Of a stretch of 64,000 bases of DNA, positions 5,290-64,000 are shown one piece after another. Location of the stretch: positions 1-64,000 of IMG/VR virus record IMGVR_UViG_3300037483_000925, one strand, 5' to 3'. Made by a program: the position numbers and the translations under genes. The DNA comes from a virus (taxonomy: Duplodnaviria; Caudoviricetes). The first letter of the stretch is position 1, and every line of letters starts with the position of its first letter. The notes below the pieces were generated by a model. The model was not told where the DNA came from, did not search any database, and saw only the letters and a program-made list of their open reading frames with translations.

Positions 5290-7830
5290 CTACTCCCCCA
5301 GGTACTTGACGAGCCGCATCAGGGTTTCGTACGGCGGCTCCAGGTTGATTATCTTCTGCGTCATGGCAATTATCTCCGCTGCGTCCTGATGGTAGTCATT
5401 ATAGACCTCGACCCCGTCCAGCAACTCCAGCCTGGCCCCCCTGAGCGAGGTCCGAACCGGATCGATGATCATCTGCCCCAGGGAGATGCGCTTCAATTGA
5501 AGGTCGCAAACGGTCTTGACCATGTCCCCGTCATCGGTATAGACCTCGGACTCCACGGTGAAGTCCATGTCCTCGTTGGCGTCCCCGTCCGAGGCATCGC
5601 CGGCCGTGTAGGTCAAGGCCGGGTTGCGGTCGAACCAGCCCCACTTGCCCACAACCCCGGCCTTGGCATCGGTATCGAAATCATAGGCGGGGTCCACCTG
5701 TCTCAGCTCCCCCCTGTCCAGACTGATGGCGGCCGCTGCCGGGGGCGTGCCCGTGTAGGCTATCAGTTTCAGGACCTCGCCCTGGTGATGGAAGCTGTAG
5801 AGGCAGCGCCTGGTAATCTCGGATATGGCCTGGGCGGCGGAGACGTTCTCGAACCTGACCCCTCCCAGATAGGTGGGGGTCGCGGCCTTGCAGGAGGCGA
5901 AGGTGGTGGCGTCGACGACCCCGTCAAGGCCCACAGCAGTCAGGATGTCCTCGATCTGGTCCACCCGGTGGGTCACCGTGTCATGGACCACCCGGAGCAT
6001 AACCTCGCCGTCCACCATCACCGGAGCGGGGGGCGAGGCATCGTCGACTTCCGTAAAGCTGACCACCCCGTATTCCGGATACTTGATAACCGTGGCCTTG
6101 GAATAGACTTGCTTCTTGACATAGATGGTCTTGATCTCGGTAAACGGGTAGCCCGGCACCTGGAAGGCGTTGAGCGGCGCCCAGTCCCAGAACCGGACGC
6201 TGCCCAAATCCACTGTCCAGCTCTCAGCGCTAGCCCCGCCTATCAAGCCAAAAATAATGTCCTTGAACTGTTGGCCGGTAAGATTAATGTCCGTCCAGTC
6301 GAGGACCTGGTCGCCGGATATCCAGAGGGCGACGTTGCCCGGGTTGCCGGTCTTGATCCGTAGAGACACATCCACCTTGATGTTGTCGTGGGTGGCAATG
6401 GACCAGTCGGTGACCTTCTCCGTGCCTCCCTGAGCGCACATCAACTTGCCGTTGTTGTCGGTGTCTGCGGCCCCGGCCACGAAGAACCGGACTATCTCGC
6501 TGCCCGAATTATCCCGGGCCTTGAACACCGTCACATTGTCGTCGACCGGGGCTCCGGGCATGACCGTGAACCGCCACGGGAACTGAAGGATGACCTCAGA
6601 AACGGCAGCGTTCAGGGCTCCGATACCGTAGGCCGATTGACTGGCCCCGGTGATCGCCGCCCGGGCCGAATAGGTGCCGTCCAAGGGAGTCGTGGAATTG
6701 ACCGACAGGACCCCGCCTCCGGAGGCAACCGTACTGCTAAAGGCATCCAGACGCCCCGTCTCGTAATCGATTTTCTTGATGTAATCCCCGATCCCCTTTC
6801 CCGAGACCTCCTTGGCCTCGGCCAGGATCTCGCCCCGGATCAGGGGCTGGGGATTGCCGTCGGAGTCCGGGAGCCCGATCTTGCGCTCCAGGGTCTGGGC
6901 CACAGAGTCCTTGGAGTAAACTTCGACGGAAAGGGCATCGGGGGAACCGTCCGAGGACACCCCGCAGAATAACGGACCCCACTTACGGATCTGGCCCAGG
7001 TAAAGAGTCTGGGTATCCGTGATTGTCCCGTGGCCGGGCCAGACGTACCCAAGTTCGATACGGAGCTGCTTGTTCTTCTGGAATAGGTTAGTCAGGTCCG
7101 TGGCGAATAGGAACGAGGACTTGTCCGGCGAGTACCTGCCGGCCGGAAGCCCGGCGCTACGGTGCCGATTGCCCAGGATCAAGGTATGGTCCCCGGCCAC
7201 CAGGTTGCCGCAGTCGGCCGGGGCCTCGACCGTGAGCTGGCCCCCGCTTTCCACATCCCCCCGGGGCACTGGATACTCCCCGGTCAGGAGCAGGGCTGTT
7301 ATGTAGGTCCGACTATCCCATGGATGGTTCGTAGGGGCGGCGTAGCTCTCCCACTCGTCCCCGCCTGCGGGCGTGGTATAGGCAGTGAGGTCGGTGGAGG
7401 AGCCGTCCGGCGAGGCCCAGGAGCGGTAGCCAGTCCAGGTCACCCGCCACTGGTAATACCGGTAGATTTGGACGGTGTCCCCGCTGCCCACGGCGGTCCA
7501 CGAGGCAGCTGCGATCCCTGCCGAGGTCATGGAACTGCGCCACTCCAGGGCCATGGTGTATCCGGGGCTGTTGTAGTCCCAGGAGATGACCGCCGGAGTG
7601 GGATAACGGCCCAGAGTGATCTCCTTGACCAGGGTGGTGGCCGTAGGATCGACTGCGGCTCCGTCGTCGGCCAAGAACTTGTCCGTGGCCACGTAGGAGG
7701 CATTGTTGAAGGTGGCCCCGGACTCAATGCCGTTAGCAAAATAGTAGGGAAGGAAGACGAACCAGATGACCGGGGTCGCTCCGTGGAGCAGGGCCTCTTG
7801 GGCCAGGAAGGCGGCGGAGGGGGCGGTCAT
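5290..7830 (-). CDS. tail tip/hub (central tail) protein
   Basis: 846 aa, beta-rich, synteny after tape measure and distal tail gene. Confidence 0.65.
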   Translation of the reverse strand: MTAPSAAFLAQEALLHGATPVIWFVFLPYYFANGIESGATFNNASYVATDKFLADDGAAVDPTATTLVKEITLGRYPTPAVISWDYNSPGYTMALEWRSSMTSAGIAAASWTAVGSGDTVQIYRYYQWRVTWTGYRSWASPDGSSTDLTAYTTPAGGDEWESYAAPTNHPWDSRTYITALLLTGEYPVPRGDVESGGQLTVEAPADCGNLVAGDHTLILGNRHRSAGLPAGRYSPDKSSFLFATDLTNLFQKNKQLRIELGYVWPGHGTITDTQTLYLGQIRKWGPLFCGVSSDGSPDALSVEVYSKDSVAQTLERKIGLPDSDGNPQPLIRGEILAEAKEVSGKGIGDYIKKIDYETGRLDAFSSTVASGGGVLSVNSTTPLDGTYSARAAITGASQSAYGIGALNAAVSEVILQFPWRFTVMPGAPVDDNVTVFKARDNSGSEIVRFFVAGAADTDNNGKLMCAQGGTEKVTDWSIATHDNIKVDVSLRIKTGNPGNVALWISGDQVLDWTDINLTGQQFKDIIFGLIGGASAESWTVDLGSVRFWDWAPLNAFQVPGYPFTEIKTIYVKKQVYSKATVIKYPEYGVVSFTEVDDASPPAPVMVDGEVMLRVVHDTVTHRVDQIEDILTAVGLDGVVDATTFASCKAATPTYLGGVRFENVSAAQAISEITRRCLYSFHHQGEVLKLIAYTGTPPAAAAISLDRGELRQVDPAYDFDTDAKAGVVGKWGWFDRNPALTYTAGDASDGDANEDMDFTVESEVYTDDGDMVKTVCDLQLKRISLGQMIIDPVRTSLRGARLELLDGVEVYNDYHQDAAEIIAMTQKIINLEPPYETLMRLVKYLGE

Positions 7831-51411: not shown

Positions 51412-52017
51412 ATGTCAAATGTAAGATCATTTCCTATAAAATATTTTCCCATCACTAAAGAAGCAAAAGAACTTGCAGAAGAATACTATGGCGATAGTTA
51501 TCTCGAGCCCTTATCTGCTATAATCCTTTCCTTTATTCAGCTATACAACCTTCCCTGGACAATAACCCAGCTAATCTCCTTAACATTAAAAAACAAAAAA
51601 CTAATAGTTCTTTATATAGAAGATGAAGAGCCAGCGGTTTTGAACTGGTATAGTTTTTCTACCGACCTAAAAGAAATGGCGGCAAGCCATGCGCTTAGCA
51701 GTTTTTTGCTCGAAGAAGATTTTCCCCATTTTGACAGGGAGTTATTTATAAGATATTACAAATATTTGATGGAGATCGAAGAAACAGACTGGTGGGATCT
51801 TATGGAATATGTGCAATTTGCATATCAAGTAAACTTCATGGAATCTGGTATCTTCGAATTAATAAAATCAATGGCCGAGGACGGCCTCCTAACCGACATT
51901 CTGGGGGTAGATCAATGGCTCAAAAAAACATCGATCAAACTGCGACAACAATGGAAGAAACCTCCACTGAAAACACCAAGACCACCAATTATCCAACATG
52001 GTGGCCAAGAAACCTAA
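51412..52017 (+). CDS. hypothetical protein
   Basis: 201-aa AT-rich ORF with RBS. Confidence 0.65.
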   Translation: MSNVRSFPIKYFPITKEAKELAEEYYGDSYLEPLSAIILSFIQLYNLPWTITQLISLTLKNKKLIVLYIEDEEPAVLNWYSFSTDLKEMAASHALSSFLLEEDFPHFDRELFIRYYKYLMEIEETDWWDLMEYVQFAYQVNFMESGIFELIKSMAEDGLLTDILGVDQWLKKTSIKLRQQWKKPPLKTPRPPIIQHGGQET

Positions 52018-53762
52018 AAAACTATCTGGAAAAAGTCAAGCCTCCTCCCTGGGACGACAATACCTTTATCTCCCTCCCCAACGAGATATTGGAAATCAAT
52101 TTAGGGTTACCAGAAAAGATCACCATCGGTGATACCTGGGTATTGATGTTCCTTGCAAGAAAGGCAGCCCAAGACCCAGAATGCAATTGCCGACTATCCA
52201 TCAAGGAAATAAGCGCTGCCATGGGGCCGTCGACCGGCAATGATAATAAACCCCAAGCTCGGGTAATCAGAAGATTAAGGAAATTTGAGCGATGTAAACT
52301 AATAGGGATAGAGCGGGTTCATGGGCAGGGGAGAAAAAATATCATCCAAGTATCCTCTGATCTTATAGAAATAGCTCTCCGGGCTGACAGAAGAGAAACC
52401 AAATCCATTCTAATAGGCCCGGAGATTTTTCTCTTAAATCTCCCCCTCTCAACCAAAACCGCCCTGGGAATCAAAAAGGCCTTGCCAAGAGTGAAGGCCA
52501 CCACCCTAGCAAAGAAACTGAGGATCACATTCCAACAGGCCCAAAACCATCTCAATTTCATCGGACAAACAGACTTCTCTATCCATTCTAAAAACCCCCC
52601 CAAAACTTTAATGAAACCCCCCCAAAACTTTAATGAAACCCCCCCAAAACTTGAAAAAGGTATAGATCAGGGTATAGACCTTGGGTTTAGCTTCAATATC
52701 CTAGGGGATATTGAAGGGGGCTTCGCCCCCCAAGCAATCGAAAACCTTCCCCATATGAAGGAGAGTAATTACATGCAAACTGTCCAGGCTGACCATAGGT
52801 ACCCAACACCAAAAGTAAGACCAAAAGACCTTTATAATAAAGCCTATCCGAAACCCCCCCCCACAGTGAGAATGACACGGGAGATCAAAGACGAATTGGA
52901 GCATGAAATTTTCCAGCACGATTTCATCACCCGGAACAAAAAACCGGATGCCCTGAGAAAATCAGCAAAAGTGGTTCAGGCCCTGAGCAGTCCCGGGGGG
53001 CTGTCGAATATCCTGGACAAAACAGAAATCGACCATATTGTACATACCATGTCTGGGAACAAGATCAAGCCCCTGTCCCCAGACCAAATCATGGGAATCA
53101 TCCAAAAGCAGTTTACAGACACAGAAAGGGTAAGGCTATATGAACTGCTTTCCCTGAATAATTCCCCGGCCTATGGGGGAAGAGGAAGGCAATCTCTATC
53201 AAAAATGGCCTATGACAACAGGGCTAATCCGGGGTGGAGCGATATTGTCTGGGTATGGCTCAGGCCGCCCCAGTTCCAGGGCAAACCCACCATCAAGTGT
53301 CCCCCTGATCTCGAGAGGCCCCTGGCCATCGTCCAGGAGTTCATGCCCCAGGCCAACCGGAACGTCGCCATCAACCTCCTGAAGGAGGCCAAGGTCCACT
53401 ACGACAAGGACATCCTGCCCCTGGAGGAGAGACTCCGGGCCTCGACCGGATTCATTGCCTTCCTGAGGAATTTTTTAAAGTGGGGCTATAATAAGGCAAC
53501 GGAAAGATGGCCCCTGAACCCGGCCTGGCTCAAGACCAATAACGGGTTCTTCCTGGAGTGGGAGGCCGAATACAGGGAGGAGCTCCAGAAGGACGCCGAC
53601 ATCAGGGCGGCCGGTGCCAGGAAGCGGGCCGACGGGGAAAGGCAGGACCTGATGAAGAGGATCATCGATGACCTGGACAACTACGACGAGGAGCACTGCC
53701 GGGAGAGGTACCCGGCCAAGATGGTGGACGAGGCGGTGAGATACATGGAAAGCATGGTGTGA
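51915..53762 (+). CDS. replication initiator-like protein with winged HTH
   Basis: FISLPNEIL...LSIKEISAAMG...LRKFERCKLI HTH; internal iterons; start uncertain (51915 or 51952). Confidence 0.65.
   Translation: MAQKNIDQTATTMEETSTENTKTTNYPTWWPRNLKNYLEKVKPPPWDDNTFISLPNEILEINLGLPEKITIGDTWVLMFLARKAAQDPECNCRLSIKEISAAMGPSTGNDNKPQARVIRRLRKFERCKLIGIERVHGQGRKNIIQVSSDLIEIALRADRRETKSILIGPEIFLLNLPLSTKTALGIKKALPRVKATTLAKKLRITFQQAQNHLNFIGQTDFSIHSKNPPKTLMKPPQNFNETPPKLEKGIDQGIDLGFSFNILGDIEGGFAPQAIENLPHMKESNYMQTVQADHRYPTPKVRPKDLYNKAYPKPPPTVRMTREIKDELEHEIFQHDFITRNKKPDALRKSAKVVQALSSPGGLSNILDKTEIDHIVHTMSGNKIKPLSPDQIMGIIQKQFTDTERVRLYELLSLNNSPAYGGRGRQSLSKMAYDNRANPGWSDIVWVWLRPPQFQGKPTIKCPPDLERPLAIVQEFMPQANRNVAINLLKEAKVHYDKDILPLEERLRASTGFIAFLRNFLKWGYNKATERWPLNPAWLKTNNGFFLEWEAEYREELQKDADIRAAGARKRADGERQDLMKRIIDDLDNYDEEHCRERYPAKMVDEAVRYMESMV
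52592..52652 (+). repeat. 22-bp direct repeats (2.8 copies), probable origin iterons
   Basis: AAACCCCCCCAAAACTTTAATG at 52592 and 52614, partial at 52636. Confidence 0.8.
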
Positions 53763-56813: not shown

Positions 56814-57191
56814 ATGCCACTGACCATCGTCAAGAGATTCGAATTCGGAGCCGCCCACCGGCTCCCCAACTACAAAGGCCCTTGTCAGAACCTCCACGGC
56901 CATAATTGGACCTTGGAGGTGGGGGTTACTGGTCCTGTGGATCGGATTACCGGAATGATCGCCGACTTCAAGCAACTCAAGGATCTGGTCAACGACCATA
57001 TCATTTCCCTTGTGGACCACCAATGCCTTAACGAGGCAGGTATCCCGGGGGTATCCCCCAATCCCACGGCCGAGAACATGGTCCAGTGGATGGTCCAGGT
57101 CCTGACCCATTACCTGAAGAAGACCGGATGCGAATTGGCCCTGATCCGACTCTGGGAAACCAGTACCAGCTATGCGGAGTGGAGACCATGA
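56814..57191 (+). CDS. queD: 6-carboxy-5,6,7,8-tetrahydropterin synthase
   Basis: FGAAHRL...CQNLHGHNW...DFKQLK...DHQCLN...PTAEN...ET. Confidence 0.95.
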   Translation: MPLTIVKRFEFGAAHRLPNYKGPCQNLHGHNWTLEVGVTGPVDRITGMIADFKQLKDLVNDHIISLVDHQCLNEAGIPGVSPNPTAENMVQWMVQVLTHYLKKTGCELALIRLWETSTSYAEWRP

Positions 57192-57835
57192 GAATCCATT
57201 CCCATTTTTTAAGCATCGACGGCGAGGTCAACTTCATGGGCCAAGGGATTCCCAGCATCTTCCTCCGGCTCCAGGGTTGTAATATAAGACCATTTTGCTC
57301 CTATTGCGACGTACCCGAGGCCCAGGACCCGAAGGGCGGTCAGGAGATGTCTGTTCAGGAGGTCTTCGACATTATCCGCGGTTATGAATGCCCCAAGATT
57401 ACTATAACCGGTGGTGAGCCCCTGCTCCAGGACAAAGAAATCCACAAGCTCCTGAACAGACTCTTTCCATACAAATATAAGATCAGTATCGAAACCAACG
57501 GCACCATATCCACGGCCCGGTTCCGGGAATGTAGGAAACCAGACCCGGACGTGGCCCTGGTGGTGGATTACAAATTTTCTGGTCATAATCCCGAAGCATT
57601 CAAGTATCTCCGGGAATGGGACTGGGTCAAGGTGGTGGTCGCGGGCAGGGATGATTTTGAAGCAGCCAGGGATGTCCTTAAATGGTCCCGGGCCTGCGGC
57701 TCCAAGGCTCGCTTTGCCCTGAGCCCGGTCCACGGGGTGCTCCCGGGCAAGGTCCTGGCCGAGTGGATCCTCGATGCCAAGATGTGGGATGTGACCTTGA
57801 ACTGCCAGATTCACAAATTTTTATCCTTGCCGTAA
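57188..57835 (+). CDS. queE: 7-carboxy-7-deazaguanine synthase (radical SAM)
   Basis: SIDGE...FLRLQGCN...CSYCD, ITGGEP, IETNG; start MRIHSH at 57188. Confidence 0.93.
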   Translation: MRIHSHFLSIDGEVNFMGQGIPSIFLRLQGCNIRPFCSYCDVPEAQDPKGGQEMSVQEVFDIIRGYECPKITITGGEPLLQDKEIHKLLNRLFPYKYKISIETNGTISTARFRECRKPDPDVALVVDYKFSGHNPEAFKYLREWDWVKVVVAGRDDFEAARDVLKWSRACGSKARFALSPVHGVLPGKVLAEWILDAKMWDVTLNCQIHKFLSLP

Positions 57836-57923
57836 GAAAAATCCAAAAAATTGACCAGAACTCGCTATAATATAAATGACAGATAAAAATGAATTTCCAA
57901 TAACCAAACCAAAGGAGCAGAGC

Positions 57924-58787
57924 ATGGACACCGGCAGTTTCACCACCAACAAGGACGGCGGCGACGGCTACAAGGCCTGCCGCAAGGCCCTCCAGGAGGC
58001 ATTCAAGGACATCAACGAGGTATTGCAGCCCAAGCCCAAGCTGAACATCATGATGGGCACGGACAAGATGGCCGAGGTCGTCGTTGCCCAGATCGCCGCC
58101 TGCATCGGCCAGGATGCCGTAGGCAACCCCACCTGGACCAATCCCGCGGCCGTGAACCTGAGCCCGGACACCATCAAGCTGTACGAATGGTGCGTGGGTC
58201 AGCGGACTCAGGAATCAATCCAAGACCCGAATTCAGTGGCTCAGACCGTAGGTAAAGAGCAAATGGCCTTTACCAATGCAGAAGGAGAGGAGATAGTTGT
58301 CACTACGGCCCAGGACGCCGCCCAGGCCGCCGAGGACATCTACCTGGCCGACGGCGAGGAGTGCCCGGGCTGGGTCAAGAAAGCCGGACCCACCAACCCC
58401 AAATACGAGGCCATCTGCTTGGTCTGTTCCCGGCTGGCGGCTTGCGCCGATCGGGCTGGGGCGGCCAAGCCCAAGGCCGGGGCCAAGAAGACCGCCGGGG
58501 AGAAGGCAGTGGAGAAGGTCCAAAAAGACGCCGACAAGGCTGCGGCCAAGGAGGCCAAGAAAGCGGAGCGGGCAGCGGCCAAGGCCGCGGGTAAACTTGC
58601 GACTCGGGTCCGGACCGATGGCCCCTCTAATAAACAAAAGGTTTTCGTCTCCTGGAAAGCCAATCAGACCAAAACGGCCGACATTCTCGGTTCCGAAGTG
58701 GATGGTGCCATTAAGACCCAGACCATTAAATCCTGGATCGGTTCTTGGAAACATGGCAAAAATCTGCCAGCTGGGTCTACGGTCTAA
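57924..58787 (+). CDS. Lys/Ala-rich protein with Cys cluster (possible DNA-binding/nucleoid protein)
   Basis: ECPG...CLVC...C, KAAAKEAKK repeats; AAGGAG RBS before 57924. Confidence 0.6.
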   Translation: MDTGSFTTNKDGGDGYKACRKALQEAFKDINEVLQPKPKLNIMMGTDKMAEVVVAQIAACIGQDAVGNPTWTNPAAVNLSPDTIKLYEWCVGQRTQESIQDPNSVAQTVGKEQMAFTNAEGEEIVVTTAQDAAQAAEDIYLADGEECPGWVKKAGPTNPKYEAICLVCSRLAACADRAGAAKPKAGAKKTAGEKAVEKVQKDADKAAAKEAKKAERAAAKAAGKLATRVRTDGPSNKQKVFVSWKANQTKTADILGSEVDGAIKTQTIKSWIGSWKHGKNLPAGSTV

Positions 58788-58791
58788 TCTC

Positions 58792-59247
58792 ATGATCTCC
58801 ACCAATTCCCCTGGGGGAGATTATCCCCCAGGGGCCATTGCTTTTATCGGTTGTAGTAAATCCAAGAGGAATCACTCTTGTTCTGCTAAAGATATGTATT
58901 TGGGAGAGTTATTTAAAAAAGCTTTCAAATATTGTCTCGTCAATAATTTTACTATTTATGTTCTCTCTGCCAAATATGGATTATTATCGCCAAATCAGAT
59001 TATTGATCCTTATGACCAAACTTTAAATACTATGTCACAAGCCGAAAGGAGAATTTGGTACGATCTAGTAAGAACTCAACTCTACCATTTGCAAGTTCCC
59101 GACTTTCTTTTTTATTTCTTTTGTGGAGAGAAATACCATCTACCCTTTCAGGGAAATAAACCCCTACAAGGATTATCCATTGGTCGGCAACTTCAATGGT
59201 TTAATCAAAGAACCACTATAATAAAATCAAAAGGATTCGATTTATGA
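58792..59247 (+). CDS. DUF6884-like protein in the deazaguanine cluster
   Basis: IGCSKSK...AKDMYLGELF...VLSAKYGL...PYDQTLN; start uncertain. Confidence 0.65.
   Translation: MISTNSPGGDYPPGAIAFIGCSKSKRNHSCSAKDMYLGELFKKAFKYCLVNNFTIYVLSAKYGLLSPNQIIDPYDQTLNTMSQAERRIWYDLVRTQLYHLQVPDFLFYFFCGEKYHLPFQGNKPLQGLSIGRQLQWFNQRTTIIKSKGFDL
58808..58834. other. 11-bp GC-rich hairpin
   Basis: CCCCTGGGGGA-GATTA-TCCCCCAGGGG, followed loosely by TTGCTTTT; possible terminator after 57924..58787. Confidence 0.5.
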
Positions 59248-59927
59248 GTTCAAAATGTATTGTCCTTCTCTCTGGTGGTATGGACTCGGCCACTCTTTTA
59301 GGACTTGCCGTTCAACAATACAAACAAGTCATGGCCCTGTCCGTGGATTACGCCCAGCGCCACAAGGTGGAATTGCAATCGGCCAAGGCCGTGGCCGAGC
59401 ATTTCGGTATCGAACACGAAATTCTGGACATTACCAATATCAATCACCTGCTGGCCGGGTCATCCCTGACTTCGGATATGGCCGTACCCCATGGTCATTA
59501 CGAAGACGAATCCATGAAGCAGACTGTGGTTCCAGCCCGCAATACCATCTTACTGAGCCTTGCCGCTGGCTGGGCCATCAGTCGAGAATTCGATACCGTG
59601 GCCTACGCCGCCCATGCCGGAGATCACGCCATTTACCCAGATTGCAGAGCCGAGTTCGTTCTGGCCATGCAAAAGGTCTTTGATGTTTTCGATTACAATC
59701 CCCTTGATCTCTGGGTTCCGTTTTTGGGCCTGGACAAGGCGGGGATCCTCAAAATAGGCATGCCTCTGGGAGTGCCTTACGAAAAGACATGGACCTGTTA
59801 TGATCCACAGAGGGAATTTAAACGAGACCTTTATAAAGCTTGCGGCAAATGTGGGTCTTGCCAAGAACGTCTTGAGGCCTTTGTCCAGCTCGGTATCAAA
59901 GACCCGATTCAATATGTGGAGAAATAA
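59244..59927 (+). CDS. queC: 7-cyano-7-deazaguanine synthase
   Basis: LSGGMDS, DYAQRH, VPARN, YPDCR, TWTCY, CGKCGSC. Confidence 0.97.
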   Translation: MSSKCIVLLSGGMDSATLLGLAVQQYKQVMALSVDYAQRHKVELQSAKAVAEHFGIEHEILDITNINHLLAGSSLTSDMAVPHGHYEDESMKQTVVPARNTILLSLAAGWAISREFDTVAYAAHAGDHAIYPDCRAEFVLAMQKVFDVFDYNPLDLWVPFLGLDKAGILKIGMPLGVPYEKTWTCYDPQREFKRDLYKACGKCGSCQERLEAFVQLGIKDPIQYVEK

Positions 59928-60847
59928 TGATTTATTACAGGATTCAAGAATTTAAAACCGATTGTCAAAAGCTGGCCGACAAAATCAAAGCCAGTGGAAA
60001 AGAATTCAAAGCCATTCGTGGCATTCCCCAAGGCGGTACAGCCGTGGCCCTGGAGCTTGGTTATCTTCTGAGGCTGCCGGTAATTGAAGAAAATGAACTT
60101 GTCATATGGAAGGCAGAATCGGTTCTGATTGTCGATGACTTGGTCGACTCCGGAGCCACCCTGCTTCGATACAAAGGCCATGATTCGGCCACCATCCACG
60201 TCAAAACTCATACCCCAAAAGAAAACTATCCCACCTTTTGGTGTTCCAAGGTCTCTGACTGGATTACTTACTGGTGGGAGGCATCAGAAGAAAAATCTAT
60301 CCGGGATAATGTCATTCGTATCCTGCAATTCATTGGCGAGGACCCGACCCGGGAAGGTTTACTTAAAACTCCGGACCGAGTAGTCAAGTCCTGGGGGGAG
60401 ATCTTCGGGGGCTATAAACAAGACCCTGCCTCGGTTTTTACTACTTTTGAACCTGATGGCTATACCCAGTTAGTCTTGCTCAAGGGAATTGAATTTTACA
60501 GTACATGTGAACATCACATGCTTTCGTTCTCCGGCAAGGCCCATATCGGTTATATTGCCCAAGATCGGATCATAGGCATTTCCAAGCTAGCTCGTCTCCT
60601 GGATGTCTATGCCCGTCGCCTCCAAGTACAAGAACGCATTGGTCAGCAAGTGACCCAGGCCATTATGAAATACCTTCAACCGGCTGGGGCTGCCTGTATC
60701 ATCGAGGCTGAACACCTCTGTATGCGTTGCCGGGGAGTAGAGAAACAGAACTCGATCATGGTTACCAGTTCTTTGACTGGTCGTTTTTTGGAAGATTCTG
60801 ATGCTGGAAGGGCGGCCAGGGCGGAGTTTATGGGGCTAATAAAATGA
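59927..60847 (+). CDS. folE: phosphoribosyltransferase-GTP cyclohydrolase I fusion
   Basis: N-terminal PRPP motif LIVDDLVDSGATL; FolE TCEHH, SKLARL, QVQER, HLCMRCRG. Confidence 0.92.
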   Translation: MIYYRIQEFKTDCQKLADKIKASGKEFKAIRGIPQGGTAVALELGYLLRLPVIEENELVIWKAESVLIVDDLVDSGATLLRYKGHDSATIHVKTHTPKENYPTFWCSKVSDWITYWWEASEEKSIRDNVIRILQFIGEDPTREGLLKTPDRVVKSWGEIFGGYKQDPASVFTTFEPDGYTQLVLLKGIEFYSTCEHHMLSFSGKAHIGYIAQDRIIGISKLARLLDVYARRLQVQERIGQQVTQAIMKYLQPAGAACIIEAEHLCMRCRGVEKQNSIMVTSSLTGRFLEDSDAGRAARAEFMGLIK

Positions 60848-61731
60848 ACAAAATCAATCTCTTTCTGGACTCCGGCGCCTTCTCCGCTTTCACCAAAAAT
60901 ATAACCATTGATATCCAGGAGTACATCGCCTTCATCAAAGAAAACCAAGATGTAATCGAAGTCTACGCCAATCTGGACGTTATTGGCGATCCTGCCGGGA
61001 CCCTGGAAAACCAGAACATTATGGAAGCTGCCGCACTTAATCCCTTGCCTTGTTTCCATTATGGCGAGGATATTCAATATCTGAAATATTATCTTTCCAA
61101 ATATGACTACTTGGCTCTGGGTGGCATGGTCCCCATCTCCACCGCCGATCTGATCCCCTGGCTCGATACTCTTTTCTCGGAACATATCTGTGGTGCGGAT
61201 GGTTTACCCAAAGTCAAAATCCATGGCTTTGGTCTAACTTCTCTAAAGCTCATGCTCCGCTATCCCTGGTACAGTGTTGATTCCACTTCTTGGGTCATGA
61301 CCGGGCGCATGGGCTCGGTCCTGGTCCCCAAACGAGGTGATTATCTGACCGATCCCTGGAAGGTGGCCGTGTCTGACCGCTCCCCATCCAAGGGCGAGGC
61401 CGGGAAACATTTCAAGACTTTCTCGCCCATGGAACAGGAAATCATTATCCAATACCTGGATTCCAAGGGCTATAAGATAGGCTCATCCGAATTCCGGTTC
61501 GAGAACAAGAACTACAAGCCCATAGCCGGGGAACGTTGGCACGGCCCGGCCCGGGGCGATGGTTCCCGGGAAGTGGAATTGGTCACTGAACCGGGCTTGA
61601 GCAATGACTATATGCAAAGGGATGAGTTGAATATTATCTATTTTCTTGATCTTGAGGCTGCGCTGCCGGCTTGGCCTTGGGCCTTCAAACTCAAGACCAA
61701 TCATGCGGTCAAGGGCGGGTTTGATCTGTGA
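60844..61731 (+). CDS. dpdA: DpdA-like DNA guanine transglycosylase (TGT fold), N-terminally short
   Basis: LFLDSGAFS, NLDVIG, PCFHYGE, LALGGMV, IHGFGLT, SVDSTSW; adjacent to que genes. Confidence 0.8.
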   Translation: MNKINLFLDSGAFSAFTKNITIDIQEYIAFIKENQDVIEVYANLDVIGDPAGTLENQNIMEAAALNPLPCFHYGEDIQYLKYYLSKYDYLALGGMVPISTADLIPWLDTLFSEHICGADGLPKVKIHGFGLTSLKLMLRYPWYSVDSTSWVMTGRMGSVLVPKRGDYLTDPWKVAVSDRSPSKGEAGKHFKTFSPMEQEIIIQYLDSKGYKIGSSEFRFENKNYKPIAGERWHGPARGDGSREVELVTEPGLSNDYMQRDELNIIYFLDLEAALPAWPWAFKLKTNHAVKGGFDL

Positions 61732-61916
61732 GAATTTATCTGGCCAGTAATAATCCCGGACCGAGAGAGAGAGAGTTAGAAAAATATAATCGACTCTATG
61801 TTCCTAACCGACTCATTTCCTATTGGCAAATAGTCAACAAAGAAATGGATTGTGAAAATCTTTTTGAATGGTGTAAAGGGGCAAATCTTGCAAGTATTTC
61901 TCGCCACTTGGACTGA
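61728..61916 (+). CDS. MKIYLA-family mini-ORF 1
   Basis: MRIYLASN...NRLISYW; GTGA overlap with dpdA. Confidence 0.7.
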   Translation: MRIYLASNNPGPRERELEKYNRLYVPNRLISYWQIVNKEMDCENLFEWCKGANLASISRHLD

Positions 61917-62075
61917 ACTGAGCCAGAAAATTTCCCTGGATAAACTCAGGCAAAAAACCGCTTATTGTCCTATTTCTTCATAAAAAACGAATCACAGGAG
62001 TGGTTAAAAAACTATGCTAATTCAACGTCAAACACTGGTCAATGCCCTGGGCCTTCTCAAACCCGGCTTGAGTAA
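61888..62075 (+). pseudogene. MKIYLA-family mini-ORF 2, frameshifted at A6 (61952-61957)
   Basis: TTG start with GGGG RBS, MQVFLATW...KLRQK; -1 frame continues NRLLSYFFIKN. Confidence 0.55.
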
Positions 62076-63006
62076 CAAAGATATCATCGAGCAGGGCCTA
62101 TGCTTTAACTTCAACAAGGACACCATCACCACCTTCAATGACCTCATCTCCGTCTCCATTCCCCTGGAGACCGGGATTGAGGGCGCGGTCAGGGCTGAGG
62201 AACTGCACAAGCTCTTGGACCGGATCACCGCCGATGAAATTGAACTGACTCAAACCGAATCCGAGCTCCGGATCAAGGCCGGAAAAATCAAGGCCGGACT
62301 CTCACTCAAAGCTGAACTGCTCCCGCCTCTGGCTGTGGAAAATGAATGGCAAGAATTGCCCAAACAATTCAAGGAGGCCATTGGCTTTTGCCAATTCTCC
62401 ACCTCCAAGGACATGACCAGGCCCCACCTGACCTGCATCCATTTCGAAGGAGTCAAGGTTTCCAGCTCTGATCGCTGGCGCATCACCCAGTTCGCCATGA
62501 CCGAGGCCATTCCGGTGAATTTCCTGCTCCCGGCCTCGGCCGCCAACATTCTCCTGAAATACAACATTACTCACATGGCCTTGGACAATGCCTGGGTTCA
62601 TTTTGCAGACGCAGAATCGGGCCTGGTATTCAGCACTCGGCTTATCCTGGCCGATTTGATGCAGCCGGATCAGTACTTCGATGTCCAGGGTCAGGTGGTT
62701 AGGCTGCCAGATTTGGACAAAACCCTGGAGCGGGCTAAAATAATGGTAGAGGGGGACTCTGATCTGGACCTGACCATCAAATTGATCCTGGAGCCGGGCA
62801 AGTTGATTTGCCGGGGCCAGAAAGAAATCGGTTGGGTGGAGGAGGTCGTGGACCTGGATTACAATGGTTCTCCCATTACCATGATGGTCAATCCCCTATT
62901 CTTGGCCGATATCCTGTCCAGGACCAAGGAAATGATCGTGTCGGAGAACATGTGCCTGTTCTGGGGTGAGAATTTCCGACACGTGATGATGTTGGTAAAG
63001 GAGTAG
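62014..63006 (+). CDS. dnaN: DNA polymerase III beta sliding clamp
   Basis: 330 aa; FSTSKDMTRPHLTCIHF, SSDRWRI, NPLFLADIL, three-domain length. Confidence 0.85.
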   Translation: MLIQRQTLVNALGLLKPGLSNKDIIEQGLCFNFNKDTITTFNDLISVSIPLETGIEGAVRAEELHKLLDRITADEIELTQTESELRIKAGKIKAGLSLKAELLPPLAVENEWQELPKQFKEAIGFCQFSTSKDMTRPHLTCIHFEGVKVSSSDRWRITQFAMTEAIPVNFLLPASAANILLKYNITHMALDNAWVHFADAESGLVFSTRLILADLMQPDQYFDVQGQVVRLPDLDKTLERAKIMVEGDSDLDLTIKLILEPGKLICRGQKEIGWVEEVVDLDYNGSPITMMVNPLFLADILSRTKEMIVSENMCLFWGENFRHVMMLVKE

Positions 63007-63008
63007 TC

Positions 63009-63170
63009 GTGAAGATTTATTTGGCCGGAATGCCTGGGGGGGGATTAAAAGGAAGAAAAAATATGACCAAAATTCCTTTTCTAAAAATCCTGATAAGCTA
63101 TTTTCAATTTATAGATGGACTATGGGATCACAAACAAGATACTTTGTTTCTACTTGAAAAATCAAAATGA
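63009..63170 (+). CDS. MKIYLA-family mini-ORF 3
   Basis: Read manually: MKIYLAGMPGGGLKG...KILISYF; G8 tract. Confidence 0.7.
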   Translation: MKIYLAGMPGGGLKGRKNMTKIPFLKILISYFQFIDGLWDHKQDTLFLLEKSK

Positions 63171-63370
63171 AAATATATCTTGCTGGTCACGGGGGGGGCT
63201 TGGAAAAGGAAGAAATCAAATTGATAGCAGTTGGAATCAAGAATCGGCTCCTTTCCTTCTTTTCTATCTCATGCCCGGAATTTTATTCCGAAAAAGGAAT
63301 ATTCAAATTATATGAAAATCTACTTGGCCCACAACGCCCCTTGGAGAGCAAGAGAAATGTTTTTAATTGA
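63167..63370 (+). CDS. MKIYLA-family mini-ORF 4
   Basis: MKIYLAGHGGG...NRLLSFF; G8 tract. Confidence 0.75.
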   Translation: MKIYLAGHGGGLEKEEIKLIAVGIKNRLLSFFSISCPEFYSEKGIFKLYENLLGPQRPLESKRNVFN

Positions 63371-63494
63371 GCGGGGGGGGATTAAATCAAGATTAATTTC
63401 TTATTTTTATGCAATTCGAGAAGGAGCAGCATCATTTCAATATCTCAAGGAAATCAATGAAAATCTACTTGGCCGGGACTCCGGGAATAATTAG
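63312..63494 (+). CDS. MKIYLA-family mini-ORF 5
   Basis: MKIYLAHNAPW...SRLISYF; G8 tract. Confidence 0.75.
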   Translation: MKIYLAHNAPWRAREMFLIERGGIKSRLISYFYAIREGAASFQYLKEINENLLGRDSGNN

Positions 63495-63633
63495 CAGGGA
63501 GGGGGGGTGGATAAAGTTATATGTTCATCGTCTGCTCTCGTTCTGGGATATTCAACAAGATCAATTTCAGGTACCTCAAGCCTTTAATTTGATCAAGGAA
63601 AGAAATGAATTTCGTACACCTCCACCTGCATGA
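63457..63633 (+). CDS. MKIYLA-family mini-ORF 6
   Basis: MKIYLAGTPG...HRLLSFW; G7 tract. Confidence 0.75.
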   Translation: MKIYLAGTPGIISREGGWIKLYVHRLLSFWDIQQDQFQVPQAFNLIKERNEFRTPPPA

Positions 63634-64000
63634 TCAGTTCTCCCTTCTGGATGGGCTCGGGACCGCTGACCAATATGCCGCCAGGGCCAAGGAATTGGAT
63701 CAGGGCATCCTGACCCTCACGAATCACGGCAACATCGACGGCCTGATCAAGTTCCAACGCGCCTGCACCAAGGCCGGGATTAAGCCCGTCCTTGGCTGCG
63801 AGCTATACATGGTCCCTGACCTCAGGAAGAAGGAAGCCAAGGAAAAGCGGCACCACATGACTGTCCTGATCCGGGACGAGGCCGGGTTCCGGAACCTGCT
63901 CCAGATGCTGTCCATCGCCAACCTGGAGGGGCACCATTACCGGCCCCGGGTGGACCCGGCCACGGTCCTGGGGCACCGGGAGGGGCTCGTTTTCATGTCC
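63605..64000 (+). CDS. dnaE: DNA polymerase III alpha subunit, N-terminal PHP domain (runs off the window)
   Basis: Read manually: MNFVHLHLHDQFSLLDG...TNHGNIDG...IKPVLGCELY...HMTVL...RPRVD. Confidence 0.93.
   Translation, partial: MNFVHLHLHDQFSLLDGLGTADQYAARAKELDQGILTLTNHGNIDGLIKFQRACTKAGIKPVLGCELYMVPDLRKKEAKEKRHHMTVLIRDEAGFRNLLQMLSIANLEGHHYRPRVDPATVLGHREGLVFMS

What the first reader, a model, noticed from the sequence alone, without database searches (positions are those of the whole stretch)
60844..63633. Split DpdA with an array of six diverged N-terminal cassettes
Seen: the DpdA-like ORF starts almost directly at LFLDSGAF. Six 53-67-aa ORFs (61728, 61888, 63009, 63167, 63312, 63457) share M(K/R)IYLA-loop-helix-(N/S/H)RL(L/I)S(Y/F); ATGAAAATCTACTTGGCC is identical in two; each overlaps the next gene and they flank dnaN and dnaE. 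From recollection, full-length phage proteins of this family begin MKxYLAG...LxS(Y/F) before the FLDSGAF strand, so the minis look like the missing first beta-alpha-beta unit of the barrel. Inference: interchangeable subunits complement the core in trans and diversify target sequence or base, a modular DNA-modification specificity system.
Basis: partly seen in the sequence, partly recalled or inferred. Interest (0 to 1): 0.85.

Follow-up and report, generated by a model that had tools for sequence, protein, structure and literature searches.

The report
Split phage DpdA with switchable N-terminal modules
This phage's DNA-modifying enzyme DpdA lacks the first quarter of its barrel fold, which is encoded instead as six small separate genes, each carrying a slippery DNA repeat, so the phage may be able to swap or switch enzyme parts.

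Summary
The DpdA-like ORF (60844-61731) starts at strand beta3 (FLDSGAF). Six mini-ORFs sit at the stated coordinates: five are intact and one (61888) is frameshifted.

The minis are true homologues of the N-terminal beta1-alpha1-beta2-alpha2 unit of full-length DpdA:
- hhalign gives 97% probability, E 2e-11.
- An AF2 model of a fused relative (pLDDT 96) places this unit as the first two strands of a TGT/DpdA barrel (Z 18 to PDB 7UI4).

The minis are real genes:
- dN/dS against a relative is 0.06-0.23, like the core gene (0.105).
- They occur in at least 71 of 74 related phage loci, always on the core's strand.
- They fall into subfamilies conserved across phages.

Every mini carries a simple repeat between beta1 and beta2 (G8, G8, G8, G7, (GA)6; A6 in the broken copy). 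Earlier scan notes flagged these tracts too. Such repeats are 17.7-fold enriched in minis across the clade. Their lengths differ between near-identical phages and switch copies on or off.

Trans-complementation, changed specificity and within-population switching are inferred, not shown. The complex predictor was closed and only assembled contigs were available. About 40% of relatives have a fused N-terminus yet still carry extra minis, so "missing piece" is too simple. I rate it a new variant of a known kind, of high interest.

The parts
56814..57191 (+). queD (6-carboxytetrahydropterin synthase), part of the preQ0 pathway
   Evidence: Pfam PTPS, E 7e-36
57086..57835 (+). queE-like radical SAM gene; the true start is probably near 57195
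   Evidence: Pfam Radical_SAM and Fer4_12
59244..59927 (+). queC (7-cyano-7-deazaguanine synthase)
   Evidence: Pfam QueC, E 6e-64
59927..60847 (+). folE (GTP cyclohydrolase I) with a PRTase-like N-terminal extension
   Evidence: Pfam GTP_cyclohydroI, E 8.5e-66; weak Pribosyltran hit
60844..61731 (+). DpdA core: barrel strands beta3-beta8 plus the C-terminal extension. It starts at FLDSGAF and lacks beta1-alpha2.
   Evidence: phrog_887 E 1e-55, matching from profile position 56. 43-51% identity to annotated phage DpdA over the aligned residues, 67-81% of the core. The fused relative's model shows beta3 at LFLDS.
61728..61916 (+). mini m1 (62 aa). Its GTGA overlaps the core stop. Carries (GA)6 at 61763-61774.
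   Evidence: Orthologues in L005 and L014 with dN/dS 0.12-0.23. A mini sits directly after the core in 40 of 62 well-flanked loci.
61888..61983 (+). mini m2, frameshifted (off or pseudogene) at the A6 run 61952-61957. One more A would restore ...KQKNRLLSYFF, running past the dnaN start.
   Evidence: Intact orthologues in L005 and L006 have A7; L008 carries an intact m2-type copy without that run.
62014..63006 (+). dnaN-like sliding clamp
   Evidence: Pfam DNA_pol3_beta_3, E 5e-6; synteny with annotated phages
63009..63170 (+). mini m3 (53 aa), with AAGGAG upstream. G8 at 63036-63043.
   Evidence: dN/dS 0.06
63167..63370 (+). mini m4 (67 aa). Its ATGA overlaps the m3 stop. G8 at 63191-63198.
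   Evidence: dN/dS 0.21
63312..63494 (+). mini m5 (60 aa). G8 at 63373-63380.
   Evidence: dN/dS 0.10
63457..63633 (+). mini m6 (58 aa). G7 at 63501-63507. It belongs to the same subfamily as the N-terminus that is fused to the core in other phages (for example P0060).
   Evidence: dN/dS 0.09
63605..64000 (+). 5' end of the dnaE-like DNA polymerase III alpha gene (runs to 67183 in the genome)
   Evidence: Pfam PHP, E 2e-30; ORF size

Best explanation
The window is the first 64 kb of an 84-kb uncultivated phage genome from a sediment metagenome. It carries a 7-deazaguanine DNA-modification module: folE, queD, queE and queC make preQ0, and DpdA inserts it into DNA.

The dpdA gene encodes only strands beta3-beta8 of the TGT-type (beta/alpha)8 barrel. 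The first ~48 residues (beta1-alpha1-beta2-alpha2) are supplied by a family of small separate genes:
- m1 is translationally coupled to the core.
- m2 lies before dnaN and is frameshifted in this genome.
- m3-m6 lie head to tail between dnaN and dnaE.

I propose that the active enzyme is a two-piece barrel made of the core plus one mini. The paralogous minis keep the two strands constant (MKIYLAG, RLLSY/F) and vary the beta1/alpha1 and beta2/alpha2 segments. They would therefore give holoenzymes that differ on the DNA-binding, catalytic face, and so probably in the sequence context or efficiency of guanine replacement.

Each mini has a slippage-prone repeat (G7-8, (GA)n) between beta1 and beta2. 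A change of one repeat unit truncates that mini after beta1. The repeats would act as contingency switches that turn individual modules off and on in the phage population.

Shown: homology, the predicted structural role, conservation with purifying selection, repeat enrichment, and repeat-length differences between related genomes.

Inferred: physical assembly, changed specificity, and switching within a population.
For: (1) The core lacks the N-terminal unit.
- phrog_887 matches only from profile position 56.
- Annotated phage DpdAs start about 55 aa before FLDSGAF.

(2) The minis equal that unit.
- Long-form relatives at 59-85% identity to the core begin with mini-like sequence.
- hhalign of 123 minis against the long forms gives 97.3%, E 2.2e-11, onto residues 1-43.

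(3) Structure.
- AF2 of the fused relative P0060 has pLDDT 96.4 and pTM 0.92.
- It gives beta1 2-6, alpha1 12-19, beta2 24-28, alpha2 39-48 and beta3 52-56.
- It aligns from residue 1 to DpdA 7UI4 (Z 18.3, 265 residues) and to TGT (Z 18.4).

(4) The minis are real genes.
- dN/dS is 0.06-0.23, against 0.105 for the core and 0.12 for dnaN.
- They have AAGGAG or AAGGA sites, or ATGA/GTGA start-stop overlaps.
- 71 of 74 loci have HMM hits, all on the core's strand.
- 35 of 37 unfused cores have at least one mini by HMM. The other two have mini-like sequence by eye: mini-like ORFs in L098 and an in-frame RLFSY remnant upstream of the core in L063.
- Subfamilies are conserved across phages.

(5) Repeats.
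- The only G>=8 runs and the only (GA)n of five or more units in 84 kb lie in the minis.
- Across 74 loci the density is 2.12 per kb in minis against 0.12 per kb elsewhere (17.7-fold, p 4e-54).
- The G tracts are identical, or one longer, between the window and L005 although pS is 0.45-0.73.
- In L011, L013, L017 and L012, four of the five indels over the three mini copies fall in C7/8/9, G8/9 and (GA)5/8/9 tracts and flip copies on or off.
- 5 of 9 two-frame minis break at (AG)5-7.

(6) Literature.
- In the solved bacterial DpdA, the beta1/alpha1 loop helps form the DNA-binding surface and the beta2/alpha2 loop flanks the active site (PMC10164549).
- Phage DpdAs are motif-specific: GA and GGC in CAjan (PMC7544227), GA in iggy (PMC10484667).
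- SSR contingency loci in phages have a precedent, including the DNA-modification gene agt of T2 (bioRxiv 10.1101/2025.10.21.683753).
Against: - There is no direct evidence that a mini binds the core.
- 25 of 62 well-flanked relatives have the N-terminal unit fused in cis and still keep stand-alone minis. The minis are therefore not simply compensating for a truncation. In those phages a trans mini would have to compete with the cis unit, or pair with core made from the retained internal Met (43 of 67 long forms; only 10 of 27 of these have an SD-like site).
- The SSRs encode Gly-Gly and Arg-Glu repeats that may be wanted in the loop for their own sake.
- About two thirds of intact minis in the clade have no SSR (126 against 60).
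- Identical genomes recovered from different samples had identical short tracts.
- The single contig covering this locus shows no variants.
- Some length differences could be assembly errors in older metagenomes.
- No experiment has yet tied the beta1/alpha1 or beta2/alpha2 loops of a phage DpdA to motif choice.
Confidence: 0.55

Rival explanations
1. The core has one constitutive partner and no specificity library. It pairs with a single default mini, the one coupled directly behind it. The other minis modulate activity (dosage, timing, competitive inhibition) without changing the target motif.
For: A mini directly after the core is the most conserved position (40 of 62 loci). In the window m1 overlaps the core stop. 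Fused forms show that one N-terminal unit is enough for a complete barrel.
Against: Several distinct mini subfamilies are retained across diverged phages under purifying selection. That is hard to explain if only one is productive. The variable parts map to loops that contact DNA in the solved DpdA (PMC10164549).
Confidence: 0.2
2. The repeats are not switches. The G and GA tracts are by-products of Gly-rich and Arg/Glu-rich loop sequence, and the observed length differences are fixed mutations or assembly errors. Trans-complementation may still be true.
For: The tracts encode GG(G) and RERE in frame. Most SSR-bearing minis are intact (60 against about 9-12 broken). The only contig covering the window locus shows no variants. 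Two thirds of minis lack SSRs.
Against: Only 29% of Gly codons in neighbouring genes are GGG. Yet by my count from alignment A6 all ten third positions inside the four tracts stay G between genomes whose synonymous sites are about half changed. Four of the five indels between near-identical genomes fall in the tracts and change frame. Enrichment is 17.7-fold.
Confidence: 0.2
3. The minis act on another partner. As half-barrel fragments they could bind something other than the phage core, for example a host TGT or Dpd enzyme, or the replisome next to which they are encoded. They would then act as inhibitors or tethers.
For: Four or five copies lie between dnaN and dnaE rather than beside dpdA. 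Phages with a complete fused DpdA still carry them. The m3 tail QDTLF loosely resembles a clamp-binding motif (my reading, untested).
Against: The family is found only next to this DpdA clade in the loci surveyed, and it is homologous to the DpdA's own N-terminus. Unfused cores are essentially always accompanied by a mini. A core lacking two barrel strands needs a partner.
Confidence: 0.08
4. The minis are decaying 5' gene fragments left by recombination or duplication, are not translated to any purpose, and the core is either self-sufficient or dead.
For: One copy (m2) is frameshifted in the window. No Pfam, NCBIfam or PHROG family matches the minis.
Against: dN/dS is 0.06-0.23 with synonymous sites near saturation. 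Orthologous subfamilies sit at fixed positions in dozens of phages. Start codons, SD sites and coupled stops are present. The core itself has dN/dS 0.105 and invariant catalytic-motif residues.
Confidence: 0.03

Closest known systems
Phage DpdA (Queuovirinae-type DNA 7-deazaguanine transglycosylase, e.g. CAjan, 9g, Seuratvirus GottfriedDienst; phrog_887)
   Same: The core is 43-51% identical over the aligned residues, 67-81% of the core. The gene neighbourhood is the same (preQ0 genes - dpdA - small ORFs - dnaN - DNA polymerase). The FLDSGAF and SVDS(S/T)W motifs are shared.
   Different: Those enzymes are single polypeptides with the ~55-aa N-terminal unit fused. The small ORFs beside them are unrelated to the minis. 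No SSRs or N-terminal paralogue arrays have been described for them.
Bacterial DpdA of the Dpd restriction-modification system (PDB 7UI4; PMC10164549)
   Same: The fused relative's model has the same TGT-like (beta/alpha)8 fold (Z 18.3, 265 residues, aligned from residue 1). The general-acid Asp lies on beta3 in an LDSG motif.
   Different: Only 17% identity. The NCBIfam DpdA model scores 18 bits against a cutoff of 200. The core has only two Cys, so there is no CxCxxC...H zinc site. Bacterial DpdA needs the DpdB ATPase, is one chain and has large insertions.
Phase-variable specificity in restriction-modification systems (Type III mod phasevarions; Type I hsdS with SSRs or shufflons)
   Same: A DNA-modifying activity whose expression or specificity component carries an in-frame SSR, giving population heterogeneity in DNA modification.
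   Different: Those are host methyltransferases with whole-gene on/off switching or target-recognition-domain swapping. Here a phage would hold several alternative pieces of the catalytic barrel itself, each with its own SSR. This comparison rests on my own knowledge and was not tested here.
Phage contingency loci (T2 agt and others; bioRxiv 10.1101/2025.10.21.683753)
   Same: A mononucleotide SSR inside a phage DNA-modification gene gives frequent reversible frameshifts. These let the phage hedge between defences that attack modified and unmodified DNA.
   Different: T2 agt is one complete gene with an A-run. Here there are five or six paralogous sub-domain genes, with G runs and (GA)n, and no experimental switching data.

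Membership tests
TGT/DpdA superfamily, phage DpdA clade | Significant sequence similarity to phage DpdA | tested here: met
   phrog_887 E 1e-55. tblastn finds 232 phage records, 43-51% identity among the listed hits, including genes annotated as DpdA.
TGT/DpdA superfamily, phage DpdA clade | TGT-type (beta/alpha)8 barrel fold | tested here: met
   Tested on the fused relative P0060, about 60% identical to close short-form homologues of the window core. pLDDT 96.4. Z 18.3 to 7UI4 and 18.4 to TGT 5JT7. The window core itself was not folded.
TGT/DpdA superfamily, phage DpdA clade | Whole barrel in one polypeptide | tested here: not met
   The core begins 4 residues before beta3. No N-terminal unit lies upstream in any frame.
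TGT/DpdA superfamily, phage DpdA clade | Catalytic Asp on beta3 (LDSG motif) and a second conserved Asp (nucleophile) | tested here: inconclusive
   D9 (FLDSGAF) and D146 (SVDSTSW) are invariant in alignments A2, A4 and A9. Equivalence to SmDpdA Asp95 and Asp256 is judged from motif and strand position only, not from a residue-level superposition.
TGT/DpdA superfamily, phage DpdA clade | Linked preQ0 biosynthesis genes | tested here: met
   folE, queD, queE and queC lie directly upstream.
Bacterial DpdA (NCBIfam NF041059) | Score above the curated cutoff; CxCx2Cx22H zinc site | tested here: not met
   18.2 bits against a cutoff of 200. The core has only two Cys and no CxCxxC. It is not filed under this family.
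SSR contingency locus (phase variation) | SSR inside the reading frame, over-represented relative to the genome | tested here: met
   (17.7-fold enrichment, p 4e-54).
SSR contingency locus (phase variation) | Tract-length polymorphism between close relatives that changes the frame | tested here: met
   L011, L013, L017 and L012 differ in C7/8/9, G8/9 and (GA)5/8/9 tracts, with on/off changes. Window m2 has A6 against A7 in orthologues. For the window's G tracts no variant relative was found.
SSR contingency locus (phase variation) | High-frequency reversible switching within one population | not testable with these tools
   Only one run holds the locus, and it is stored as contigs.
Split (two-gene) enzyme assembled in trans | Both fragments encoded, conserved and co-occurring | tested here: met
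Split (two-gene) enzyme assembled in trans | Physical association and activity only when combined | not testable with these tools
No biochemical data exist.

The most novel reading that the evidence does not exclude
A large clade of environmental phages builds its DNA-hypermodifying transglycosylase from a constant six-strand core plus one of several alternative two-strand cassettes. Each cassette is gated by its own hypermutable repeat. A single phage lineage would then continuously generate progeny with different 7-deazaguanine modification patterns, as an epigenetic bet-hedging device against both restriction enzymes and modification-dependent defences.
Probability: 0.3. Interest if true: 0.9.

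Novelty: new variant of a known kind. Interest (0 to 1): 0.78.

Why it matters
DpdA-type enzymes decide which guanines in a phage genome are replaced by 7-deazaguanines, and so which host nucleases the phage escapes. What sets their sequence preference is unknown.

A natural system in which the same catalytic core meets several alternative beta1-alpha2 modules would be a ready-made experiment on that question. It would also be an unusual case of a TIM barrel completed in trans by interchangeable subunits.

If the repeats are true contingency loci, heritable but reversible variation in DNA hypermodification would extend from bacteria (phasevarions) and T-even phages to a widespread group of uncultivated phages. 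The family has thousands of members in public data, and about half of the closest representatives are the short form.

It also has an annotation consequence. These 50-65-aa genes are mostly left uncalled, and frameshifted dpdA genes may be switches in the off state rather than pseudogenes.

Tried and rejected
There is no in-silico binding test.
- Sequencing runs: only one DNA run (probably the source, a sediment metagenome) holds the locus, and no RNA holder is listed. Laying its contigs shows one contig at depth about 16 with no variants. Contigs cannot show minor tract lengths.
- AF2 of the long form P0090 with a 31-sequence alignment left the N-terminus unfolded (pLDDT 35-53). Foldseek on that model gave only weak TIM-barrel hits. 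A 124-sequence alignment resolved this.
- A profile search of PDB sequences with A4 found nothing.
- The minis have no Pfam, NCBIfam or PHROG match.
- hhalign of the minis against a single Seuratvirus DpdA is not significant (probability 8%), although it aligns RLLSY with ILESYHY at the expected place.
- The small ORFs beside dpdA in Seuratvirus, Rhizobium and Aminobacter phages are unrelated to the minis.
- A pattern search for closer relatives of the window's m5 tract found one unrelated contig in the metagenome collection and none in the viral collection.
- No further minis or second TGT-like core exist elsewhere in the 84-kb genome.
- Reading the G tracts as assembly frameshifts is rejected for the window. 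Both conserved motifs (MKIYLAG before the tract, RLLSY/F after it) are in one frame in all five intact copies.
- The overlapping C-terminal tails (NENLLG...) are the next mini's conserved start read out of frame. I do not treat them as functional.
- The clamp-binding-motif idea for the m3 tail was not pursued.

Full report
**Setting.** The window is bases 1-64000 of an 84,046-bp IMG/VR virus record. The one sequencing run that holds it is a sediment metagenome. Positions 55-64 kb form a replication and DNA-modification module on the + strand:
- a 504-aa ORF with no Pfam match
- queD (PTPS), queE (radical SAM), a 303-aa ORF of unknown function, DUF6884, queC, and folE with a PRTase-like extension
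- the DpdA-like ORF
- a dnaN-like clamp
- the PHP-domain start of dnaE

The order preQ0 genes - dpdA - small ORFs - dnaN - DNA polymerase also occurs in Seuratvirus, Rhizobium and Aminobacter phages with annotated DpdA.

**Observation.**
- The DpdA-like ORF (60844-61731) begins MNKINLFLDSGAF.
- Mini-ORFs start at 61728, 61888, 63009, 63167, 63312 and 63457.
- Five share M-(K/R)-I-Y-L-A ... (R/I)-L-(L/I)-S-(Y/F) (alignment A1).
- The 18-mer ATGAAAATCTACTTGGCC occurs twice, against about 0.04 expected.
- The sixth (61888, MQVFLATW...) is only 31 aa. Orthologues in relatives L005 and L006 have one more A in a homopolymer (A7 against the window's A6 at 61952) and read ...KQKNRLLSYFF. The window copy is therefore a frameshifted member.
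- m1 starts in a GTGA overlap with the core stop, and m4 in an ATGA overlap with the m3 stop.
- m3 has an AAGGAG site, and m5, m6 and dnaE have AAGGA sites.
- The head-to-tail spacing of 145-158 nt equals the length of the structural module described below. The tails that overlap the next gene are that gene's conserved start read out of frame.

**Are the minis the DpdA N-terminus?** Yes.
- phrog_887 matches the core only from profile position 56.
- Annotated full-length phage DpdAs begin about 55 aa before FLDSGAF, with M-x-x-F-x-A-G ... L-E-S-Y-H-Y.
- Among 4,106 homologues of the core, the closest clade contains both ~297-aa short forms and ~340-365-aa long forms. The extra N-terminus of the long forms looks like a mini, for example MKIYLAGVPGGG...RLHSYFH.
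- A profile of 123 stand-alone minis aligns to residues 1-43 of the long forms with hhalign probability 97.3% and E 2.2e-11.
- Window m6 belongs to the same subfamily (GTPG...RLLSFWDI.Q.QF.VP.AF.LI) as the N-terminus fused to the core in P0060, P0103 and P0105.

**Structure.** A first AF2 run with a shallow alignment left the N-terminus disordered. With 124 sequences the fused relative P0060 folds at pLDDT 96.4 and pTM 0.92:
- beta1 residues 2-6
- alpha1 residues 12-19
- beta2 residues 24-28
- alpha2 residues 39-48
- beta3 residues 52-56 (LFLDS)

The model superposes from its first residue on bacterial DpdA 7UI4 (Z 18.3, rmsd 3.5, 265 residues) and on Z. mobilis TGT from residue 40 (Z 18.4). 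The window core therefore encodes strands beta3-beta8 only, and a barrel cannot close without beta1 and beta2. By TIM-barrel topology the variable mini segments (after beta1 and after beta2) lie on the catalytic face. In the crystal structure paper (PMC10164549) the beta1/alpha1 insertion helps form the DNA-binding surface. The beta2/alpha2 insertion flanks the active site and is proposed to contribute to sequence recognition. Phage DpdAs are motif-specific: GA and GGC in CAjan (PMC7544227), GA in iggy (PMC10484667).

**Are the minis genes?** Yes.
- Against the relative L005 (core 85% identical), dN/dS is 0.06-0.23 for m1 and m3-m6. It is 0.105 for the core, 0.12 for dnaN and 0.08 for folE, with pS 0.45-0.73.
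- An iterated mini HMM searched on six-frame translations of 74 non-redundant related loci finds hits in 71. All lie on the core's strand. The median is 3 and the maximum 8.
- Among 62 loci with adequate flanks, 40 have a mini directly after the core, 26 have stand-alone copies just upstream, 49 have copies further downstream around dnaN, and 25 have a copy fused in frame to the core.
- 35 of 37 unfused cores have at least one HMM-detected mini. The two exceptions have mini-like sequence by eye: mini-like ORFs in L098 and an in-frame RLFSY remnant upstream of the core in L063.
- Distinct subfamilies recur across diverged phages: ATAPGNE-type, ATW-type, GTPG-type, GNTPDR-type and GVPGGG-type.
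- In the 1.84-billion-protein representative library the family has 7,782 members at E<=1e-3. Of the top 150, 70 are short forms and 44 are long forms.

**Repeats.** Earlier first-reader notes (e1-5901885, e1-5901882) also flagged these tracts. I saw them independently, before that look-up.
- Each window mini carries an SSR between beta1 and beta2: (GA)6 in m1, G8 in m3, m4 and m5, and G7 in m6. The broken m2 differs from its orthologues at an A-run.
- In the whole 84-kb genome these are the only G>=8 runs and the only dinucleotide repeat of five or more units.
- Across the 74 loci, SSR density is 2.12 per kb in mini regions against 0.12 per kb elsewhere (17.7-fold, binomial p 4e-54; mostly G/C runs and (AG)n).
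- Between the window and L005 the tracts are preserved, one extended to G9, although flanking synonymous sites are about half substituted and GGG makes up only 29% of Gly codons in neighbouring genes.
- L011, L013 and L017 are near-identical in sequence, and L012 is related. All four come from different samples. Over their three mini copies, four of the five indels fall in a C tract (8/9/7), a G tract (8/9/8/8) and a (GA)n tract (8/8/9/5). Each flips a copy between an intact and a truncated frame. The third copy is the N-terminus of the dpdA gene itself and is out of frame in all four contigs. It is in frame in P0060, P0103 and P0105.
- Elsewhere, 5 of 9 two-frame minis break at (AG)5-7.
- SSR contingency loci in phages, including the DNA-modification gene agt of T2, were recently demonstrated (bioRxiv 10.1101/2025.10.21.683753, section 5).

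**Interpretation.** The best-supported reading has three parts. The enzyme is assembled from a constant core and one of several paralogous beta1-alpha2 modules. These modules differ on the DNA-facing side. Slippage in their SSRs can switch them individually. The steps shown are homology, predicted fold, selection, co-occurrence, repeat enrichment and between-genome tract polymorphism. The steps inferred are physical assembly in trans, functional difference between minis, and high-rate switching within a population.

The main complication is that 40% of relatives have a cis-fused unit yet keep extra minis. The fused genes mostly retain a Met 6-11 residues before beta3 (43 of 67, against 32% expected for any position in the window). 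Core-only protein might therefore still be made, but only 10 of 27 have an SD-like site upstream.

**Caveats on the switch idea.**
- Two thirds of intact minis have no SSR.
- Most SSR-bearing copies are in frame.
- Identical genomes from different samples carried identical (short) tracts.
- The only data for this locus are contigs, which hide minority variants.

**Novelty.** I found no description of a split DpdA, of paralogous N-terminal cassettes, or of SSRs in dpdA in the DpdA literature I searched. The thing itself (a DpdA-type transglycosylase with a preQ0 pathway) is known, and SSR contingency loci are known. The architecture is new: a barrel completed by one of several separately encoded, individually switchable two-strand modules, widespread in uncultivated phages. 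I classify it as a new variant of a known kind, with high interest that depends on experimental proof of trans-assembly.

Noticed in passing
window 52586-52655 and 52854-52862: Three tandem 22-bp units (AAACCCCCCCAAAACTT(T)AATG-like, each with a C7 run) and a C9 run 200 nt downstream. All lie inside a 656-aa ORF (51792-53762) with no Pfam match. This looks like iterons of a replication origin embedded in an initiator gene, or another slippage-prone site.
   Followed up: partly
window 58795-59247: A DUF6884 (PF21818, E 1.5e-34) gene and a 303-aa Lys/Ala-rich ORF (57876-58787, no Pfam hit) lie inside the preQ0 cluster between queE and queC. Syntenic ORFs of similar size exist in relatives. They could be extra 7-deazaguanine tailoring or accessory factors.
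   Followed up: no
window 59927-60847; L006 4743-5666: folE carries a ~120-aa N-terminal extension with a weak phosphoribosyltransferase signature. The extension is conserved in relatives.
   Followed up: no
L005 9084-13053; L006 8910-12443; L008 8370-11930: In relatives the dnaE-like polymerase carries a C-terminal UDG-family domain (Pfam PF03167). In L005 it also carries an intein. The window's dnaE (63605-67183 in the genome) is the same length class.
   Followed up: no
L007 5059-5397 versus L006 5666-6001: Two otherwise identical phage contigs differ by a 112-aa Pyr_excise (T4 endonuclease V-like) gene called between folE and the DpdA core in one of them only.
   Followed up: no
L005 5387-5479: Directly after folE in the relative L005 there is a truncated mini-like ORF (MKIYLGG...) with a G8 tract at 5401. 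It looks like another off-state copy upstream of a 151-aa gene and the fused dpdA.
   Followed up: partly
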